Shown here: positions 151 to 57,884 of the stretch, in pieces
Layout of the letters: the number at the start of each line of letters is the position of its first letter
Position numbering within the stretch: the first letter of the stretch is position 1
NCBI RefSeq assembly: GCF_963506605.1
Contig: NC_083279.1
Span: 79,050,001-79,114,000, forward strand
Direction of reading: 5' to 3'
Source of the DNA: Zootoca vivipara
Taxonomy: Eukaryota
Length of the DNA: 64,000 nt
Notes under the pieces: generated by a model
Seen by the model: the letters and a program-made list of their open reading frames with translations, nothing else
Told to the model about the DNA's origin: nothing
Databases searched by the model: none
Program-made: the position numbers and the translations under genes

Positions 151-1734
151 GTCTAGAAACATACCACAGTGCTATGCAAGTGCCGACAACCAGGTGATCC
201 CTTTGGCCCAGCCATGTGTTTACAGGCCCACACTGTGAGGACAGTATCCCTTTAAGTGGGCTGTGCCTAAGTGCATCACATGAGACTGGAAGGGACGTCT
301 GGGTAGCAGAATGATTCAGAAAAGCTATGGCTTCCTATAACAGAGACTCCTCATCTAGTAAATAGTTAATAAAGTTTATCTTATATTTATGGACCTCCTG
401 GTAGGGGCAGGCTTTGCCAAAATCATCTCTTGGGCCAAATGTGGAAATCTGGTGGGCCTAATTAGGGTTCCTAACCCCTGTGCTAGCATATCATAGGCAA
501 ATTCTATAGAAGATCATTGAATTAGCTTTACTTTCCTTGCATGTTGCTCTAGAAAGAGATTTTAATAAACCCTTTCATGAGTGGGAGAAACTTTAAATTC
601 GCAAAAGGTCATCTTTGGATCCAGATTCATCAGTTCCCCATACAGTATTGTTTTCAAGGTGTCCAGTCCTCCATCCCTATATCACTGACTCTCTTAATAA
701 TGGGGTCTTCATTGCAGCTCTCTGTTAAGAAAATCTTACGATGCATTGTACACTTTGCAAACATTACCCACAAGCAAAAGGGTACATTCTATGACTCCTT
801 TAGGATTCTGTGTGTCTACTTGTTATAAGCCATGGCAAAAACAGCCCAGTTGCACATTTTCTCCCATGAGTGGAGAAAAATAAAGTTGGGGTTTTGTTCT
901 ATGCTTCAGATTCAGCTCAGGTTTTTTTTCAAATGGAAACGATACTCCACACCTGTGCGAGGAGAGGGTATGTGGGACAACCCAAAGGGCTGGAAAGGGA
1001 AATAAAACGAATCCCTGTTGAATTTTGTCTCCTATAGGGCTTTCTTTATAATTGTCAAACTCCAAAGAATAAAAAAGTAAAGACAATCTTGAGATACTAC
1101 TTTATGTCTCTCATGGGTGGGTTTAATAGCTAGCTAGTTCTTTCCTGTGCATTAATATTTAAAAACAGATGTCCGGACAATGTGGTCACTCATTCCCTCA
1201 AACTTGGTTACAAAAATGAGACTAAAAGCCTTTGAGGAGCTTGTTAGGAAATGAGATGTTTTTCTTTTAGATTTAGCAATGCTCTTGCTAGGTATTCTTG
1301 TCTTCTTCTTAGCTTGCTTGTGGATAACCTGGTCCTGTGAAGCTACATCAGCTTTTCCCTTCAGTGATCTTGTAAAATCCATCTTTGGTTAAGAACTGAC
1401 AAAGTGTTAACTGATACATATTCTGTGGTTTCTATTTTGCAATGTAGAAAAGAGAAGAAAAGGTTGTTTTACAAGCATTTTCAGTAATGTGCCCTTTCAA
1501 GATACTTGACACTCCTTAAAAATCCCTGGTTTGCAAGGGTTGTTGCACTACAACCACTTTTTCCATGATAAAATATGCATTTCTAGCTCTCCAGGTGGCA
1601 AGGGAAAAGCGCAGGTTGGATTTGTGAGTCCAATAAAATGAAGGCTATAAATATATATATGGGACACAGCTACCTTCTTCGACATCTTTATTGTTGAGAG
1701 GGATCAAACAGAAAATAGAAAGTATAGTTCTCCC

Positions 1735-1786
1735 TGGAACAAAAACATTCAAAGATTCAGTGGAACAAAAACATTCAAAGATTCAG
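1735..1786. repeat. Perfect 26-bp tandem duplication
   Basis: TGGAACAAAAACATTCAAAGATTCAG twice. Confidence 0.9.
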
Positions 1787-1974
1787 TGGGATAAAATATG
1801 GGGAAGAGCCATAAACTCAGCGGTAGAGCTGCTGGACTAGTTGCAACCCTCTCTGTGTGGAGATAGCTTGGCTTCAGTTGTCTAGGTACTGATCACCTCC
1901 AGGTTAGACCACTGCAATGCATTGTGTAGGGGTCTGCCTTTGAGCAGCACCTGCTTTCACTGAGTGGTCTAGAG

Positions 1975-2307
1975 CAGGGGTCGGCAAAGTTTTTGTGGCT
2001 TGGGCCAATTCACAGTCCCGCAGACGCCACGGTGGGCTGGAGTGCATGCATGCGCGCGCACACACATGTGCAAACACTATTTCCAGTGCTCTTCCCAGCA
2101 CAGAGGAGGCATGCGCAGCTTCCCATTGGCTGCAGGAGCTTTCTGCAGCCAATGGGAAGCCAGCCAGCATCGTGGAAGGCGGTCCCCACTCTGCTCAGCA
2201 TCGGTTTAGCATGGCGCACGGGAGCCAACCAAGTGGCTGGTGGGGTCCATGGGCCAGTTAAACGACCCCATGGGCCGCTTTTGGGGCCCTTAGGTTGCCG
2301 ACCCCTG
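1975..2307. mobile_element. hAT (Charlie-like) MITE, 333 bp
   Basis: TIRs CAGGGGTCGGCAA/TTGCCGACCCCTG; TSD GTCTAGAG/CTCTAGAG. Confidence 0.88.
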
Positions 2308-2779
2308 CTCTAGAGAATATGCATTGTATTTTGGGCTGCAAACATCTGCCACAAAAAATACGCACTGTTAAAATTGATTCCAAGGTTGGAAGGAAGTTGT
2401 TTACTTCTTGCTCCACTGGGTCCCAGAGTATTCATAAATGTCCAAGCAAACAGCATATCTTCCCTTTTGTAGCTCTGGAAGATTTACCACCGCTCTGCCA
2501 TGCTGGCAATTGCGTGCAAGATTTAGCATCAAAGAACTGATGATAAATGTGTTGAAATGGCACCTGTCTAGCAGTTGTCCTGCTGCGACAGCTTTGTTGC
2601 TAAATGCAGTTGAATTTCAAAGTGTGACCACCAGCAAAACATCCAAATAGATCTGTCATACCATAAGACACATCAGTCACAGGGACCAAGGGATGTGTTT
2701 AACATCTATTCTGGCTTATCCAGCCTATGCCTTACAGCACTGGTCATCAAGTTTTTGGCAACAGTGGACACATTTCAGT

Positions 2780-4260
2780 ATTAAGATTGACACTTGCTGA
2801 TCTTAATACAGAATTTATATTCCTTTAACATCGGCCAAATCAAACTCAGTGCCAAAGGTGGTTCCAACACCCCTAATGCGAAAGATGTAAAACAAGGGTG
2901 TATTCTTGCCCCTTTTTTAAAAAAAAAAAATTTTATCAGATCTTCCAGAGCACATTCCAGAGCACATGACCCAAAAATCAATCAAAACCCGGATCCACTG
3001 TTACTGTATGCAGATGATGTGGCCTTATTATCACTGACGAGGATAGGCCTGAAATGTTTTTTACACTCCCTGATTTCCTATTGTGAAATCAATAAACTCT
3101 CAATAAACTATGGGAAGACAAAAATTCTGGAAAATAAGAGGACAAGAAATCCAGCAAGTAAAGATGCACAGATATCTCGGAATTTTATTCCAGAGCAACT
3201 CAGGTTGGTCAAACCATCGCACAAGCGCTATAAAACAGGCAAAGTGTACCTCCTCGGAAGTTGTTCGCTTTTACTTTCAGAAAGGTAACCAATTTATACC
3301 AGGTGCTATTCAAGTTTTTCAAGCTAAATTGTCATCCCAGCTACTTTTTGGGATCCCAATATGGATACAAACATATAATAATGATTTAGATAAGATACAC
3401 TCAAGTTTCTTGACGTATCCTGGGGCTCCCAAATGCAATCAAGTATGAGACGATTTGTGCAGAGCTAAGTATGCACACGATGGAATACTGGGTGTGGACT
3501 AGCACTATAATTTGCGTTGCCATTTCCATTGCCAGCCTTTGCGTCTGCTTTCTGAGTTTCTTAAGGACTCTTATAAATCCAGATGCTTCCAACTCTTACA
3601 GAGCAAAATCAGATCTATTGGTAATGACTTGGAACTTTTGTATAATTCAAGTGAGCAATATATTTATCGTAATATTCAAATCAGATTAAGGGACACTGAA
3701 AAACAAAACATTGAGTCAGCTGTAAATAAAATCTGCTCCAAGTTTTATGGTTTAAATACAACAGATAACAGGGTCACTTATATTACAAAATTAATAAATG
3801 CAGTCCAACGCAGGGCCTTTATGTTAGACCAACTGAACGTTTCCCCCTCAGCTTTTGTCAAGGGCAGATATTTAAACATCCCCAGAAATGGTAGACATTG
3901 TGGGTGTTTTTTTGAAGTGCCAGACACAGTAGAACATATTCTTTTCTACTATCCATTGTACAAACAGCTACCCAAACATGTGCTACCCCCTTTTTCTGGG
4001 TAGTCTAACATCATGGCACAATGAAAATATCAGATTCTATCTGTCTGACATTAACCCGGAAGTAGCTACAAGGGTATCAATAGTATCTCTTAGGGTGATG
4101 AATGACACTATTTAGCGGGAAGAAACTCCAATGAAAATCCTCATTATTACATATTTTTACATGGCTGTTCATTTGTATATGTTTTAAGATTTTATATATG
4201 GATGCTTTATGATGGCCTATATTTGTAATGCCTAATAAAGGTTTGGCAAAGTAAGTAAAA
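2780..4260 (+). mobile_element. Degraded, 5'-truncated non-LTR retrotransposon (RT plus C-terminal Cys/His region; RTE-X-like, clade tentative)
   Basis: Frameshifted ORFs 2794..3288, 3110..3448 and 3512..4003 carry VKQGCILAPF, LLYADD, YLGI and GRY..IPR..RHCGC...TVEHIL. AATAAA at 4234 and a short AAGT tail. Confidence 0.8.
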
Positions 4261-25735: not shown

Positions 25736-26046
25736 GTAAGTAACAGAACTCTGTCCTGAAATGCTGCAGGAGTAACGGGCAGGGTTGGGTTTGCATGCAA
25801 CTCCTATCTGAAGCCCTGTAGAAATGAATGGAAAGCAGAGAGCGGCACACTATGCTCAAATTAGTAGCTTGTACCCTTTAGCAAAATGAGGGCTAGGGAG
25901 AGATGATCCGACAGAGAAGCAAAGTGGCTGATAGTGACACTCCTATTTGGAACTGGAATTAGGGTCTGTGCCTTTCCCAAGATTTCAAATATCCTCAGAC
26001 ATTTGCAAAAACTTTCATTCCTCCATATCCCACCAACCCCCCAAAG

Positions 26047-26389
26047 CATAGCTACCAAGTTCCGGATTGAAAAATCTGGGACCAGCAGCGGCGCGGCAGC
26101 GGAAGTCGCTTCTACACGACTTCCAGACATGCGTAGAAGCGACTTCCAGCGCCGCTCTGCCCATTTCCAAAATGTCCGCAGCACCAGACATGTGTAGAAG
26201 CGACTTCCGATCCCAGCGCCACCTGATTTCCGGTGCCCATACATGGGCAGAGCGGCACCAGAAACATGGCCGCCAGCAGGAGCTGCTTTCCGGGGGATTT
26301 ACGGGATATAAATCCATTCGGGAGACCAGCGGGAAACGGCAAGAAAATACGGGGGTTTCCCGGGAAAAACGGGGTACTTGGCAGCTATG
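26047..26389. mobile_element. CpG-rich MITE with CATAGCT(G/A)CCAAGT TIRs
   Basis: Perfect 8-bp TSD CCCCAAAG (26039-26046, 26390-26397); internal palindromic GGAAGTCGCTTCTACAC/GTAGAAGCGACTTCC units. Confidence 0.92.
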
Positions 26390-28491
26390 CCCCAAAGTCC
26401 GGGAGAAACGTATTACAGTATGATCGCTGCTTTAAACTGTATTTCAGAGAGATGCCAGCTGAAGTTTAAAATGATCAAAAATGATATTTTAACGCTGCCA
26501 TTGAAGGGCAGTCTCTCACAGCTTTCTGCACAACCTTTTATGCAGCCTGACCCTGTGGCAACATCATTGCACAATTTGCTTCCTCAATGCGCTCATTGGC
26601 ATGCAGTAAGGTTTACCTTTATACATATTGTTTCAGCATCAAATGCTGTGCAGTTCAGGGATTTTCCGCAACATAACTTACCCCCTGCCCAGAGTGCATA
26701 CCGTTGTGCTTTTCACCAGGGGGTGAGGGGTGGGGAACAGCACCAAACACCTGGCTTCCTATCGGGGGACCCTCTGCCCTTCTAGTGAGGAAGAGGTTGT
26801 GGGGAGATCAGAGCACTGTAGATACCCCCTCCCCGCCAGCTGCCACCGGCTATTCATTTTGTTTGGGTGGCTCTTAAGTATTCGGAGGGTTTGTGCAGCT
26901 CAGGAATATCTAGTTTATAGTGCTTGCAAGATACCTCCTTCCAGCATATGAGCTCATTGTTCAGGTATGCGCACAGAGAATACTCTGCAAGTGTGTTGTT
27001 CCCTGCTCAACCTCAGGGAGTCTAAGGCAGGCCTGGGAATATTGATGGACTACAAATCCCATCATGCCTGAGCTTTGGCCAACAACACCTGGAGGGCCAC
27101 AAGTTCCCCATCCCTGTTATAGACCCTGGGTCCCCAATGTTGTGCCCTTGGGCATCCTCCTTTCTGTATACGTATATATGGGACATTGGTTTTTGCTCTC
27201 TTTATTGGGAGGGAGCTTATTGGGAGGGAGCTTATTACCACACTTGGAAATGCTCTCCCTGACTATGCAGACCACCATTGGTCTCCCCATATAAGGCTCT
27301 TCTTATATCCATCCTGTTTAGGGGAATTCCCGTTTAGAGGTTATTTATTTGTGCAGGGTACAGAGATGTAAATCATTGCCGATTTACACCCTTAGGCTTT
27401 GGACTGGTTCCAGAGTTGCATCGTTTGAAAAGCAGGTGAAAACAATGAAATGTCCTTCCCCTTCAGACACGCTCTGGATGCGAGAGGCTGTTTGACCCTC
27501 CGGAACAAAAGTGTGAAGAAAAATAATGTTCTGGCACACACAAGAAAGCTTGTGCTGTCAGGTGTGATCTATGAGGCTGTGCACACTGTTGAAGGCATCC
27601 CCGAGCTTTTAACAGGTTGATAAGCCACAGGAAATAAGAAGAGGGTACTAAAATAAATTTTACCTCTGTTAGCATGTCCCCCAGAAATACTAATGATTAA
27701 GGGCCAGTTAGGCTTTGCTGCAATCCTCACCCACCCGTTTTTCTCATGAGCATAAATTTTCACTGTATTTTTAAGACTTTAGAAAGGGGCTGATCCATTA
27801 TCCCCTACAGCACCTGTCATCCCTTATCAATAGATACTGTTAAACAGCACTCCAGGAAAAGGAGGAAGGAAAGGGTTGGGTGCCCAATAATAATTAGCAG
27901 CACAGTTCATGCAACAGAGAAACGTGTATTGTACAATGGTACAAAAATGGTCTGTTACCGAATCAGATTGCCTGATTAAGGCATGTGCCAAAGCAGGTAA
28001 AAGATTGTCGTCCCCATTGAATTGCAGAGAAAATATAGAATATGGGTTGCTTAAGGGCTTTAGCTCAATGATAGAGCATCTGATTTCCATGCAGAGGGTC
28101 CCAGGTTCAATCCCTAACATCTTCAGGTTGGGTTGGCAATGTTTGCTCTCTGGAACCCTGGAGAGCTGCTGCTAAATGGGCCAATGTTCTGATTCAGTAT
28201 AGAAGGCATCTCCCTATATTCCTTCCTATGGAGGTCAGTGTGGTGCAAACACACCAGTAGCAGGAGCACAAGATTACTGATGTTTTTCACACTGTGCTGA
28301 CCTCCCCTCTGCCTCTCCTCTCTCTTGGTAAGCAGCAACAACTGCCCTGCCAGGAAGTTGCCCTAGCAGCTCTGCCCTTCCTGATGAGCTGCTTCTGGGT
28401 ACCTGCTGCCCCTCACCCAATGGGAACACTAACAAAATGATCAGGTAGCTATACTGAGAAGGGTGATACTAACATATCTCCTTACATGGGA

Positions 28492-28596
28492 AAATAAAAA
28501 AATTCCTTCAGTAGCACCTTAAAGACCAACTAAGTTTATATTTTGGTATGAGCTTTCGTGTGCATGCACACTTCTTCAGATACACTTCTTCAGATA
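28492..28596 (-). mobile_element. Short Penelope-like element (pLTR fragment)
   Basis: AGTAGCACCTTAAAGACCAACT signature of reptile Penelope-like repeats; perfect 14-bp TSD CTCCTTACATGGGA (28478-28491, 28597-28610). Confidence 0.8.
28546..28583 (-). ncRNA. Minimal type I hammerhead ribozyme motif
   Basis: Minus strand GUAU-CUGAAGA-A-GUGUG CAUG CACAC-GAAA-GC-UC^AUAC. Core CUGANGA/GAAA, 5-bp stem II, stem I GUAU/AUAC, palindromic AGCU stem III, NUH triplet CUC. Confidence 0.75.
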
Positions 28597-29425
28597 CTCC
28601 TTACATGGGAGATAAACTTGATTTGTAATCTCTCACCCAGAAGGGTATCCAAGCTAACAGCAATACGCTTCTAATACTTCTGCACTGATATCCTCCAGAA
28701 AATGGGAAAACCTATAATTTCACAATATTGCAAGCCTTACTTCCCACACACCATCAGATAACTTCTAAATCCTCAAGTCTCAGATGATTGAAGAGGCTGA
28801 GAATTTGGGACCTGTGTTATGCCAGAGCCTCTATGACACTGCTCTTGCACTCTTGGGCAGCTGTACATGCTCCAAACAATGGGTGTCTTGTTCCAGAGAA
28901 TGGAATAATAGGTGCGGCTTTTAAAAGGGGGGAGGAGAGTTGGGGAGACGTTTAAGCTTTCAATGGCTCTATTGTAAAGCCAGAGATGGAATCTTTCATT
29001 GTTTGGTTTCTAAAGATAGCGGAAATGTGCAATTAGTCAACTTTTGGGTCACATGTAAAGGAGTTGGGGAAGACAGAAATATATGCCAACAGTTTTTCTT
29101 TGTTTCGCCAACAGTAGTGAAAGGCAGAGCGGGATTAAACATCATGCTAAGTGCTGTATCTAGTGGAGTCCCAGTCAAATTTTGGGGGATGGAGGGGTGG
29201 AGTGGAGGAGAGCTCAGTCTACGGGCTTCAGCTCTTAAGTTTCCCATTGTGAAAAGCATGTCCCTCTTGCTTCCAGCACATGGTTTCCTTACAGTAGCAT
29301 AGACTGGTACCTTCTGGGTACTGGATACAGCCTGGTGCCTTCTGGATATTGCAGGCTACAACTCCCATCAGCCCCAGCCAGCACTGCCAGTAGCCAGGGA
29401 TTATGGGAGTTGTAGTCCACAATAC

Positions 29426-29674
29426 CATACCTGCCAAGTTGCTGTCAGAGAAATAAGGGACCGGGCTGGAAATAGCAGACCAGAAGTAGCGCTGCCGCCA
29501 TTTTGGAACTGGGCGGAGCATGCTCAGAAGTGACTTTTGATGCTGCTTTGCCCAGTTCCAAAATGGCCACCGCGGCAGAATAAACCAGGGGGAAACAAAA
29601 AAATTCCGTTTTTCAGCTAGGAACAGCTGGAAAAACGGGGATTTCCCGGGGAAAACGGGAACTTGGCAGCTATG
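29426..29674. mobile_element. MITE with CATA(C/G)CTGCCAAGTT TIRs, nested in an older hAT MITE
   Basis: Flanking duplication CCACAATAC (29417-29425, 29675-29683); internal GCCGCCATTTTGGAACTGGGC/GCCCAGTTCCAAAATGGCC palindrome. Confidence 0.88.
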
Positions 29675-30166
29675 CCACAATACATCACTGGAGGGCAACA
29701 TATTGTCCAACCTTGGTGTATCAACTTTATTAGGGCTTTATTCATGATTGTCCACAGGCTGCCCTATCCCATGTGCTGCAGAGCAGAGCATGGTCGTCAT
29801 GGCAAGTGCCATGAATTGCCTTATCCTCCAGGAATTTGTCCAATCCTCTTTTAAAGCCATCCACACCAAAGTGGTGTGAACCTAGGTGTCACAGGACCAT
29901 TCCCACTCTACTGTTTTAACTATTTAACTATCATTTTTACCTATTGTCTTCTCTTCACATTTAGCTTTCTGGGTTTTATTCATGCTTCTTTTGATTTCTG
30001 TGAGTCTCCTTGAGTCCTGGTTCTGGAAGCAAGGCGGGGGTGGGGGTGGGGGTGATCATGGAACTCTTCTAACCATTCCACCATTGTGGCACTTTCTTTT
30101 AACTATTGACAAGGTATGTTCTTTCATCGATTTCCCCTCTGCGCTGCTCCTTCTCTTCTTCTCCAG

Positions 30167-38734: not shown

Positions 38735-41406
38735 AAGCCTTACCTTTATTTTTAAAAAAAGTACTCTGAGGAACTATTGTTTTCTCTTTCAGCTTAAGGC
38801 TTGTGTATCTGAACTTGAAACTTACATTTAGCTTATGGTGGAAGATACTTGCTCCTGAATGCCTGTAGACTGTTCCACATTCTTTCCTCTTCTAAATGCA
38901 TCAGGGCTTTTTTTAAAAAGTACTGTATGTGTACTTTAGTGCTGGGCCAAAATCTCAGAATTCTCTGAGGATTTTCTTTTTCAGACTTCCCTCAAAATGT
39001 TGGAGTCAGTCAGCAAAATGTATACACTAAAAAATAACAAACCCATAAAAACTACAATAAAATTGAGAGATACATTTTAATGATCCCCAGCAGACTAGAC
39101 CCCATTGTGTCAGAACAATTGAAGAATTTCAGTCCCATCTCAGAGAATACCTGGCAAAAAATTCCCTGCAACTTCTCCACCTAACAAGGTAGAGAATTTC
39201 AGGCACAGCTGTGTTTCTAAGCTAATGTATTTTCATAATGTTGAAAGAAGCCATGGATCTGGCCCCTGCTCCCTGCAGCCCCATTGCTTCCTTCATCCGC
39301 CTATAGTACAATTTATCAGAATTAACTGTGCCAAAATTTTCTCAGTAGAGACTGAGAACTTTTCTCAAAATGTTATTTTTACACACACACACACACACAG
39401 TTGGCAAATTCTGCTTCCAACAGAGATTATTCAACAAAATGTGTTCCCTCCCCATATTCAACCCTCCACAAATAATGCAGAGAAATTTGGGAGGCTATTA
39501 TGTCCTCATTTTACCTTCATTTTGAATCCCTCAGCAAATTCCATGGCCATGGAATCTGTAGTGGAAAGGCTCTAAGATTAGTTAGGCTGCAATTCTATGC
39601 CTACTTACTCTCAAGCAAAGCCCATTGAACTGAAAAGGGTTACCATTGAGTAGGTTTGCACTGCTAATGATCATTGTGCATTTTCTTAACTGGTTTGAAT
39701 ATTGGGGGTGATTCTTCCTTTATACGGTTGGCTGTCATGTGCGCATCCTCAAATGGAAAGGTGGAATACATATTGACTGAAATTAATAAAAAGATTAAAA
39801 TTAAACAGGGAGACGCAACTGATGAGAACACATCGCTCATTCCAACTAAGTCTTCAGCCAAGCCATCACCAGAGGCTCAATCAGATATATATATATATCA
39901 CCAAGGGAATTTAGCCTGCATAGATCAGCAAAGAAATCAACTCCTGCAATCAAGAAAGAGGAAAAGAAAGGCTTCTGGTGCACGTCTGAAAGTAATGCAT
40001 GTAGGTACACAGTGCAAGTTTACTCAGAAGTAAGCCCCATTCAGTTCAATGGGTCTTGTGCCCATTCAAGTATGCAGAGGACTGCACCCTTTTGACCCTA
40101 TGGTGGCCATATCCCTTACGGCAAAGGGCACTACAAGTCAAGTCCAAAGTCTAACCTGGAAGTCGCCAATGTGTTGCCCGCAGGTGCACATGAATTCTGG
40201 TTTCATCATTTTATAGTTTTTAACTTAGTTTTGTTTTCATTGGGTTGAGTGTCCATAGACCACTTGTGAGACGATTGTAATTAAGTAGCATATAAATTGT
40301 CAGAATAAATAGACAGGTGCCTCCCTGCGCTTTCAAGTTCGACTTGAAATATGCATTCTATTGTAGTCAATAGAAAGGAACAAATGATGTTTGCTAGGCC
40401 TCTCTGACTGGCCCTTGGGAGTTTCTGTAGCCTATCCCCCTTCCCCAAGCCAAGCCCCTCACTAGACCCGCCCTAGGCCCTCTTATTTGGGTCTTATTTG
40501 GCTGGAATGTGTCTTGCAGGCTTAGATGGAGTGTGTGTATGTTTGTGTGTAAAGAAACCATGCTTTTCTCATGGCTCAAATATAGGTAAGAGTCACATCT
40601 ATTGCTCTGGCCAATTTTGCCTCTGGCACCACCCATCACTGCAGGAATTCCCCACAAGGCTGGGGCGGGGGAGTGCCCTACCCTGATCTAAAGGACTTTC
40701 CCAAGTTGCATTATTTCATATTAATTCAAATGGCATGGCCTTCAGGCAGATGCAAACGAGTTCCACCCCATAAAAACCCCATAGTGCATTGTCTCAAGAC
40801 GCTGCAGTGCCGCTGTTTGATGTAAGCATTCCCTCCTTGATCAGACATGGGCTACGCTGTGTCCTGGTGAGCGCTGCTACTGAAGTGGGATGGCCAGAGA
40901 ACTGAATGAAGAGAAGCTACCATTATTATTGAGTTGGAAAGTCTCAGAGAGAGTGAGAGGAAAAGAGAGATATTTTCAATTTAACAGTAGGAGCCAGTTG
41001 TTTTGTGTCTTGACTACCTTACTGGGTGGTTTCGCTGAGAAGATCTTCCAGATGTAATTTTGGCATTAATGAATCTATTCAGGGGGAAAAACATCTGCTG
41101 GGCTGCTTAGGAAACACAATGAAACAGCTGTTGTGTCCATGGTCTTTGCTTTCCACTCTGGTCTTCTTCCTTCAGGAAAATAGATGGAGGCTATTTGAGT
41201 TCAGACGCCATTAAAATTTCTCCTTGCCTCACTTCCAGAAACAGGATTCCAGCTAAAATTAAACAATTCGGCCTCTTGCAATTTATACAGGGTGGGTGGT
41301 GGGAAGCAGAGTGGCCTCCCTTCAAGTTCAAAAGTGCATGCCGTTACACAAACACCCTCAATGTAGACAACATTTTGGGCAAATATCACCCATCTTGAGT
41401 GGAAGG

Positions 41407-41570
41407 AAATATATAAAAATAAAATAATTGTCCAGTAGCACCTTAGAGACCAACTAAGTTCATATCAAGCTCATATCAAGAATAAACTTACCAGTTGGTC
41501 TCTAAAGTGCTACTGGACAATTTTTAAAATATATTTCTACTGCGTCAGACCAACATGGCTACCTGCCTGA
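41407..41570. mobile_element. Penelope-like element fragment with inverted pLTR
   Basis: AATTGTCCAGTAGCACCTTAGAGACCAACT ... AGTTGGTCTCTAAAGTGCTACTGGACAATT inverted pair; ends CAGACCAACATGGCTACC; degenerate TSD ATCTTGAGTGGAAGG/ATCTTGAATGTAAGG. Confidence 0.75.

Positions 41571-57272: not shown

Positions 57273-57884
<612 letters not shown>

What the first reader, a model, noticed from the sequence alone, without database searches (positions are those of the whole stretch)
28478..28610. Intact minimal hammerhead ribozyme in a 105-bp Penelope-like insertion with a 14-bp TSD
Seen: the - strand of 28546-28583 reads GUAU CUGAAGA A GUGUG-CAUG-CACAC GAAA GC UC^AUAC. The hammerhead core is complete (with one extra A after the CUGANGA box), stem I and stem II pair perfectly, and stem III is the loopless palindrome AGCU. 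The non-coding unit is bounded by a perfect 14-bp TSD, and the 5' half of the core (GTATCTGAAGAAGT) is tandemly duplicated at its end. Established: Penelope-like elements carry minimal type I hammerheads with palindromic stem III that are thought to cleave as dimers. Inference: this is a recent copy of a truncated or non-autonomous, retrozyme-like lizard PLE family. It is antisense to the last ATP8A2 intron, so it would cut only antisense transcripts (predicted site between 28550 and 28549).
Basis: partly seen in the sequence, partly recalled or inferred. Interest (0 to 1): 0.7.

Follow-up and report, generated by a model that had tools for sequence, protein, structure and literature searches.

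The report
Penelope retrotransposon run-off stub with hammerhead
This 105-base insert is one of thousands of short scraps of a young Penelope-like jumping gene in this genome; it carries a known kind of minimal hammerhead ribozyme motif, was likely made when the element's enzyme copied only the front end of an uncut RNA and stuttered once, and is likely idle here.

Summary
The motif is a textbook Penelope-type minimal hammerhead, extra A included, with 13,219 exact copies in this genome. The insert is not its own retrozyme family. It is the pseudo-LTR front end of an RT + GIY-YIG element of Neptune type: L114 holds an 811-aa open frame followed by the same stretch. Among 100 arms, 47 end at the hammerhead's front edge and 1 near the cut site. 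Of 100 listed copies starting on stem I, 69 have a non-native G in front, as a copied cap would leave. Inverted twins pair one tailed and one short arm in 43 of 45 cases. Best reading: internally primed reverse transcription ran off the 5' end of a capped, uncut RNA. The 14-nt duplication (78 exact cases) is a recurrent slip, reaching 4 units elsewhere. RNA reads show no pile-up at the cut site (insensitive library). The scan already noted run-off, twin priming and the extra G on other DNA, including this genome. An ordinary member of a known kind; the interest is family-level mechanism.

The parts
28478..28491 (.). Target-site duplication, copy at the element's 3' end (last base also fits the element)
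   Evidence: 29 of 33 twin insertions of the family have 11-15 bp duplications
28492..28545 (-). Element leader 3' of the hammerhead, ending at the family's 'short' 3' end (about +96); the ~35-40 bp tail is absent
   Evidence: same as the L114 pseudo-LTR except for one T in a T run; bimodal 3' ends
28546..28583 (-). Minimal type I hammerhead motif, 38 nt; predicted cut between 28550 and 28549; activity untested
   Evidence: 13,219 exact copies; architecture as in PMC4209133
28558..28571 (-). Stem-loop II, a perfect 14-nt palindrome; second cluster of arm ends in the family
   Evidence: read from the sequence; 16 of 100 arms end at +14..+21
28583..28583 (-). First base of stem I; inferred main capped transcription start of the parent element
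   Evidence: 3,764 copies begin here with a non-native base, G in 69 of the 100 listed
28584..28596 (-). Re-copied 5' segment that makes the 14-nt tandem repeat; inferred reverse-transcriptase slip at the RNA 5' end
   Evidence: 78 exact cases; 1-4 full units in 30 loci, in both subfamilies and with both 3' ends
28597..28610 (.). Target-site duplication, copy at the element's 5' end (first base also fits the element)
25736..30166 (+). Host intron before the last coding exon of a P4-ATPase gene (ATP8A2 by recall and neighbourhood)

Best explanation
The insert is a short, promoter-less piece of the pseudo-LTR of a young RT + GIY-YIG Penelope-like retrotransposon, likely made by target-primed reverse transcription that started about 95 nt inside a capped, uncut element RNA, ran off its 5' end at the hammerhead's first base and slipped back once. 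Shown: identity with the parent's pseudo-LTR, the target duplication, two alternative 3' ends, the pile-up of 5' ends at the hammerhead's front edge, the G excess there, and the recurrent 14-nt repeat. Inferred steps: (1) the endonuclease cuts the target with a stagger of about 12-14 nt; (2) the cut end primes at the upstream one of two internal start sites; (3) the enzyme copies through the uncut hammerhead to the cap; (4) the cDNA end realigns 14 nt back on a 2-5 nt repeat and re-copies 13 nt; (5) it joins the other target end through 1 nt of microhomology. This copy lacks the TATA-like run, the tail, the ORF start and a same-strand partner. It is therefore likely dead on arrival, and its ribozyme likely silent unless an antisense transcript pairs with another copy in trans.
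For: Parent: L114 has an 811-aa open frame with RVT_1 (E 4.8e-11) and GIY-YIG (E 4.9e-5), followed by the same stretch; the tail runs into an ORF start. All 100 listed places of an exact 30-mer (5,118 in the genome) were mapped: 47 end at -1..+9, 16 at +14..+21, 2 at +10..+13, 3 at +22..+33, 1 at +34..+41, 5 at -30..-2 and 26 further upstream. Only 2,104 exact matches keep 14 native upstream bases, against 13,219 hammerheads. Extra G: 69 of 100 listed against 31 expected (P 9e-15), and 12 of 16 in fetched loci at that position. A TATA-like run lies about 25-35 nt upstream. 3' ends are bimodal, about +79-107 and +129-145; twins pair one of each in 31 of 33 and 12 of 12 cases. PMC11167929 shows, for an anole PLE in vitro, two internal start sites matching the tail, extension of both strands, and uncut RNA as the main template. 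The repeat has 1-4 full units with differing junctions and occurs in both subfamilies.
Against: No transcription start was seen directly. Raw RNA reads show no pile of read starts at +1..+4; the few small piles listed lie 16-22 nt upstream or elsewhere, and one row was not shown. 20 of 100 arms reach +1..+3, so the start is heterogeneous or chance matches extend it. The extra G could be an untemplated addition by a stalled enzyme. The test for one RNA copied twice was weak: 2 rare variants were shared by both arms against 46 in one arm only, and 2 of 29 pairs shared a non-modal T-run while 3 were discordant. PMC3846280 reads such inversions as self-priming on an antisense template. The in vitro data are for a Poseidon, not this clade. 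The sample comes from the first 17 Mb of one contig and from one subfamily.
Confidence: 0.72

Rival explanations
1. Ordinary 5' truncation of a long read-through template: the enzyme stalls at the hammerhead's stems and falls off, so the front edge marks an RNA structure and not a transcription start.
For: 31 of 100 arms do run upstream past -1, some over 2 kb, so read-through templates are used. 5' truncation is the usual account of PLE copies (PMC8557442). Upstream bases -14..-7 can pair with +12..+19 (read from the sequence).
Against: A stall should fall on the 3' side of a stem, where the enzyme arrives. Only 4 of 100 arms end at +22..+41, while 47 end after the whole motif is copied. The G excess sits at one position.
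Confidence: 0.18
2. One reading: a non-autonomous retrozyme-like family that spreads as hammerhead-cut, perhaps circular, monomers.
For: 57 of 63 arms that reach stem I carry the exact motif. The motif is unchanged in a relative only 80% alike over 523 nt. That relative forms a real 598-bp four-fold tandem array (L172). A preprint derives animal retrozymes from PLEs (10.64898/2026.07.22.740005).
Against: The window unit is solo, spans the cut site and has no constant ends among look-alikes. A circular-permutation junction was sought and occurs once, as part of an inverted arm. 1 of 100 arms starts near the cut site.
Confidence: 0.05
3. The copy acts on its host: the hammerhead cuts an antisense transcript in the last intron and so tunes the ATPase gene.
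For: The motif is intact, and family-like sequence is abundant in RNA reads.
Against: The insertion is young (apparently missing in organism B) and one of 13,219. It is antisense to the pre-mRNA and has no same-strand partner in the window. Such motifs showed no activity as monomers and low activity as dimers (PMC4209133), and the anole motif needed the element's protein (PMC11167929).
Confidence: 0.03

Closest known systems
Minimal hammerheads (min-HHR) of metazoan PLE pseudo-LTRs (Cervera and de la Pena 2014, PMC4209133; first two of four text parts read)
   Same: Type I core, short helix I, unpaired base between positions 9 and 10.1, G10.1-C11.1, palindromic helix III; mostly solo copies, some opposite-strand pairs 100-700 bp apart; reported in Neptune elements of fish and in turtle and snakes.
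   Different: Helix II is 5 bp plus a loop that completes a 14-nt palindrome. The motif is almost invariant here, whereas the paper stresses variability. Cleavage was not tested here.
Poseidon of the green anole, PAc (Frangieh et al. 2024, PMC11167929; first two of four text parts read)
   Same: Two alternative 3' ends about 35-40 nt apart (tail), hammerhead near the ORF start, uncut RNA as template, no RNA-seq ends at the cut site.
   Different: This element has the linker zinc finger that Penelope/Poseidon lack, and its ORF starts after the tail and not inside stem II. The parts read report no strict tail/short pairing of twin arms, no run-off pile-up and no extra G.
Canonical EN+ PLE insertion structure, Neptune/Nematis linker type (PMC8557442 and PMC3846280; passages read)
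   Same: Inverted 5'-truncated copy, tail often on one side only, palindromes at inverted junctions, TATA-like run in the pseudo-LTR, variable target duplication.
   Different: The window copy is a single short arm. The one-sided tail is counted here as near-obligate (43 of 45).
Non-LTR retrozymes (10.64898/2026.07.22.740005, first two of five text parts read; PMC7229834, search listing only)
   Same: Small, non-coding, type I hammerhead, derived from a PLE.
   Different: Defined by tandem units that each carry a hammerhead. The window unit is solo with variable ends; L172 elsewhere does fit.

Membership tests
EN+ Penelope-like element (Neptune type) | Single ORF with RT and C-terminal GIY-YIG in the parent | tested here: met
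   L114, 811 aa open but lacking its N-terminus; Pfam RVT_1 and GIY-YIG above cut-off
EN+ Penelope-like element (Neptune type) | [quoted passage not shown] | tested here: met
   read by eye in P0001 against the definition in PMC8557442
EN+ Penelope-like element (Neptune type) | RT phylogeny within Neptune | not tested
   no named reference set was fetched; Neptune over Nematis rests on the vertebrate host (recalled)
EN+ Penelope-like element (Neptune type) | Hammerhead in the pseudo-LTR, optional 30-40 bp tail, inverted 5' copy, variable target duplication | tested here: met
   family level; the window copy itself has neither tail nor inverted arm
Minimal PLE hammerhead | Complete core, extra base at 9/10.1, G10.1-C11.1, short helix I, palindromic helix III | tested here: met
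   against PMC4209133
Minimal PLE hammerhead | Core kept across family copies | tested here: met
   57 of 63 arms exact; unchanged in an 80%-alike relative
Minimal PLE hammerhead | Self-cleavage as a dimer or with protein help | not testable with these tools
   RNA reads show no listed pile-up at the cut site, but the library type is insensitive
Non-LTR retrozyme | At least two tandem units, each with a hammerhead | tested here: not met
   solo in the window; met only at L172
Non-LTR retrozyme | A monomer of constant length propagated as a family | tested here: not met
   look-alikes differ at both ends
Non-LTR retrozyme | Circular or cut-to-cut RNA monomers | tested here: inconclusive
   no such joint among the 15 shown of 69 in standard RNA-seq; no small-RNA or RNase R data

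The most novel reading that the evidence does not exclude
This family's thousands of stubs are a genomic record of the PLE reaction. A dimeric telomerase-related RT primes both ends of one staggered cut at two fixed internal sites of a capped RNA that starts on the hammerhead's first base. It runs off the cap and can realign to add the same 14-nt unit up to three more times, as telomerase does. It then joins the two cDNAs, often through the hammerhead's palindromic stem II. The hammerhead would then not be what makes the template; it would mark the RNA start and help resolve the insertion.
Probability: 0.45. Interest if true: 0.6.

Novelty: new member of a known kind. Interest (0 to 1): 0.3.

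Why it matters
The single copy matters little. The family offers a very large, young, nearly identical set of insertions that bears on open questions about PLEs: why the tail is one-sided, why inverted copies form, and whether the hammerhead cuts the RNA that gets inserted. The counts here say the inserted RNA was nearly always uncut and give exact start, stop and slip positions that an in vitro assay can test. Repeat addition by realignment would be a functional echo of the kinship with telomerase.

Tried and rejected
(1) Circular ~145-nt monomer (my first idea): rejected; the supposed junction occurs once and is part of an inverted arm, and the native upstream sequence is the parent's 3' UTR. 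(2) The 14-nt duplication as a fixed family feature: rejected; 78 against 13,219, with variable unit number and junctions. In the unbiased sample, 5 of 67 short arms had some re-copied 5' segment. (3) Copies starting at the cut site: 1 of 100. (4) Rfam at gathering score: no hammerhead; the E-value mode was not run. (5) No RNA holder was listed for the window stretch; this is no evidence either way. (6) Empty allele: no joint skipping the insert among the 15 shown of 28 rows in 4 runs, so only indirect evidence from organism B. (7) Single-template test: inconclusive. (8) An on/off hairpin from upstream bases: the predicted fold did not show it. (9) No complete intact parent was found: 20 of the 46 ORF-start matches were read and none stayed open beyond 186 aa; L114 lacks its N-terminus. 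(10) Lunse et al. on dimer cleavage is not held and is known to me only through a review passage (PMC6765202). (11) Six paper searches listed no paper whose title or abstract start proposes twin priming or cap copying for PLEs; none of the PLE papers listed contains 'twin priming'. Subscription papers and all supplements were not seen and may hold such statements.

Full report
Observation. Every stated feature is in the sequence: 14-bp flanking repeats at 28478-28491 and 28597-28610, 105 bp between, a minus-strand minimal hammerhead at 28583-28546 with the cut predicted between 28550 and 28549, and a 14-nt tandem repeat. Rfam has no hit for it at gathering score and its fold is unremarkable (z -0.44). 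It is real because it recurs: 13,219 exact copies of the 38 nt, 0 for the reversed control. It lies antisense in the intron before the last coding exon of a P4-ATPase gene; the name ATP8A2 is recalled.

What it belongs to. A search with the 105 bp scored 40 of 467 candidates and found 9 places, the window included, matching all 105 bases exactly. Their surroundings differ: many go on into a ~35-40 bp extension and many have an inverted arm in front. Loci chosen by the extension (901 exact matches) show that the native upstream sequence is a TATA-like run and the end of an ORF, and that the extension runs into an ORF start. L114 holds an 811-aa open frame with RT and GIY-YIG domains followed by the window's stretch, one T apart. 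The protein has the linker finger that marks Neptune and Nematis and is absent from Poseidon (PMC8557442 passages). No tree was built and no complete intact parent was found (20 of 46 ORF starts read). The insert is thus the hammerhead-bearing front of a PLE pseudo-LTR. Its motif, extra A included, is the min-HHR of PMC4209133, which also reports mostly solo copies, opposite-strand pairs, no monomer activity and low dimer activity.

Age. In three runs of the same organism from different samples, contigs run from the element into the right flank, and in two of them also from the left flank into the element. This suggests an empty site but does not show it; no skipping joint was among the 15 rows shown of 28.

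How it was made. I number from +1, three bases before stem I, so the motif is +4..+41 and the cut follows +37. All 100 listed places of an exact 30-mer (5,118 in the genome; first 17 Mb of one contig) were fetched and mapped. The 5' ends: 47 at -1..+9, 2 at +10..+13, 16 at +14..+21 (the stem II palindrome), 3 at +22..+33, 1 at +34..+41, 5 at -30..-2 and 26 further upstream, two of these running off the fetched DNA. Chance matches can shift an end by a few bases. Templates were therefore nearly always uncut, and copying mostly stopped just after the whole motif. A copied cap explains this (established for other reverse transcriptases; recalled), and a TATA-like run lies at a fitting distance. 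An untemplated addition is not excluded.

The 3' ends fall in two groups, about +79-107 and +129-145. Head-to-head twins pair one of each in 31 of 33 cases (one exception is a nested locus) and in 12 of 12 hand-picked pairs of mixed subfamilies (P 6e-11 against one half). 29 of the 33 have 11-15 bp duplications. This fits the two internal start sites and two-strand extension shown in vitro for the anole Poseidon (PMC11167929), and it quantifies the one-sided tail described in PMC8557442 and PMC3846280; the latter prefers self-priming on an antisense template. Whether both arms come from one RNA molecule stayed open: 2 shared against 46 unshared rare variants in 90 pairs, and 2 of 29 pairs with the same non-modal T-run (shuffle P 0.0014) against 3 discordant. 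The window copy is a single arm with the short end, like 13 of the 34 unpaired arms.

The duplication. It occurs exactly 78 times. In the 30 loci picked for it, 14 have 2-4 full units and 16 have one plus a part; 24 and 6 belong to the two subfamilies, and 17 are tailed and 13 short. It therefore arose repeatedly. The bases around the RNA start recur 14 nt downstream (2-5 nt of match), so a cDNA end that has run off can realign and copy again; this step is inferred.

RNA. About 6% of each of three raw RNA runs from one study was laid on L114:3850-4900. Depth rises from about 20-50 just upstream to hundreds or thousands over the leader, but 57-86% of laid reads run on into unlike sequence, as passively transcribed genomic copies would. 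No listed pile of starts or ends lies at +1..+4 or at the cut site (8 of 9 rows shown). Standard fragmented libraries are a weak test, so neither the start nor cleavage is shown.

Retrozyme question. The preprint read defines active non-LTR retrozymes by tandem units that each carry a hammerhead. The window unit fails this. A 598-bp unit repeated four times at L172, an internally deleted relative with the identical motif, meets it. It also shows that the motif is conserved where neighbouring sequence is only 80% alike, which suggests selection on the motif in the source elements.

Verdict. A real but ordinary stub of a known kind of element. The family-level pattern is more interesting than the copy, is partly in print as description, and was already noted by this scan in other genomes and once in this one. 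Those notes are unchecked and are not counted as support; the counts above are my own.

Noticed in passing
L172 (G000:C1:2776000-2782000), about 1320-3742: A 598-bp unit in tandem with four hammerheads identical to the window's: an internally deleted relative (ORF start fused to ORF end). It fits the definition of a non-LTR retrozyme and is the natural locus for a dimer-cleavage test.
   Followed up: partly
L039, L057, L062, L063: Direct partial tandems in which the tail and the first 30-60 bases of the ORF are followed at once by a new copy starting at or just before stem I, in three of the four behind an extra G; this looks like a template jump from one RNA's 5' end into another and may be how pseudo-LTR tandems arise.
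   Followed up: no
L138 and other twins: Both arms meet exactly in the 14-nt stem II palindrome; two copies of the motif are predicted to pair through it at about -30 kcal/mol, which could compete with the stem III dimer.
   Followed up: partly
window 28054-28123 (+): tRNA-like match just above Rfam's score with very high contig depth: likely the head of a tRNA-derived SINE.
   Followed up: no
window about 41400-41510: Decayed remnant of an older subfamily of the same element, without a hammerhead.
   Followed up: no
window 29347-29424 and 29490-29574: Two neighbouring inverted repeats (28 and 42 nt arms), probably parts of other repeats.
   Followed up: no
window 57276-57884 (-): Open frame resembling the last exon of SHISA2 (recalled), tail to tail with the ATPase gene.
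   Followed up: no
L114, 14 to 7 bases upstream of +1: Eight bases complementary to the hammerhead core and stem II start, present only in read-through RNA; the predicted fold did not form this pairing.
   Followed up: partly
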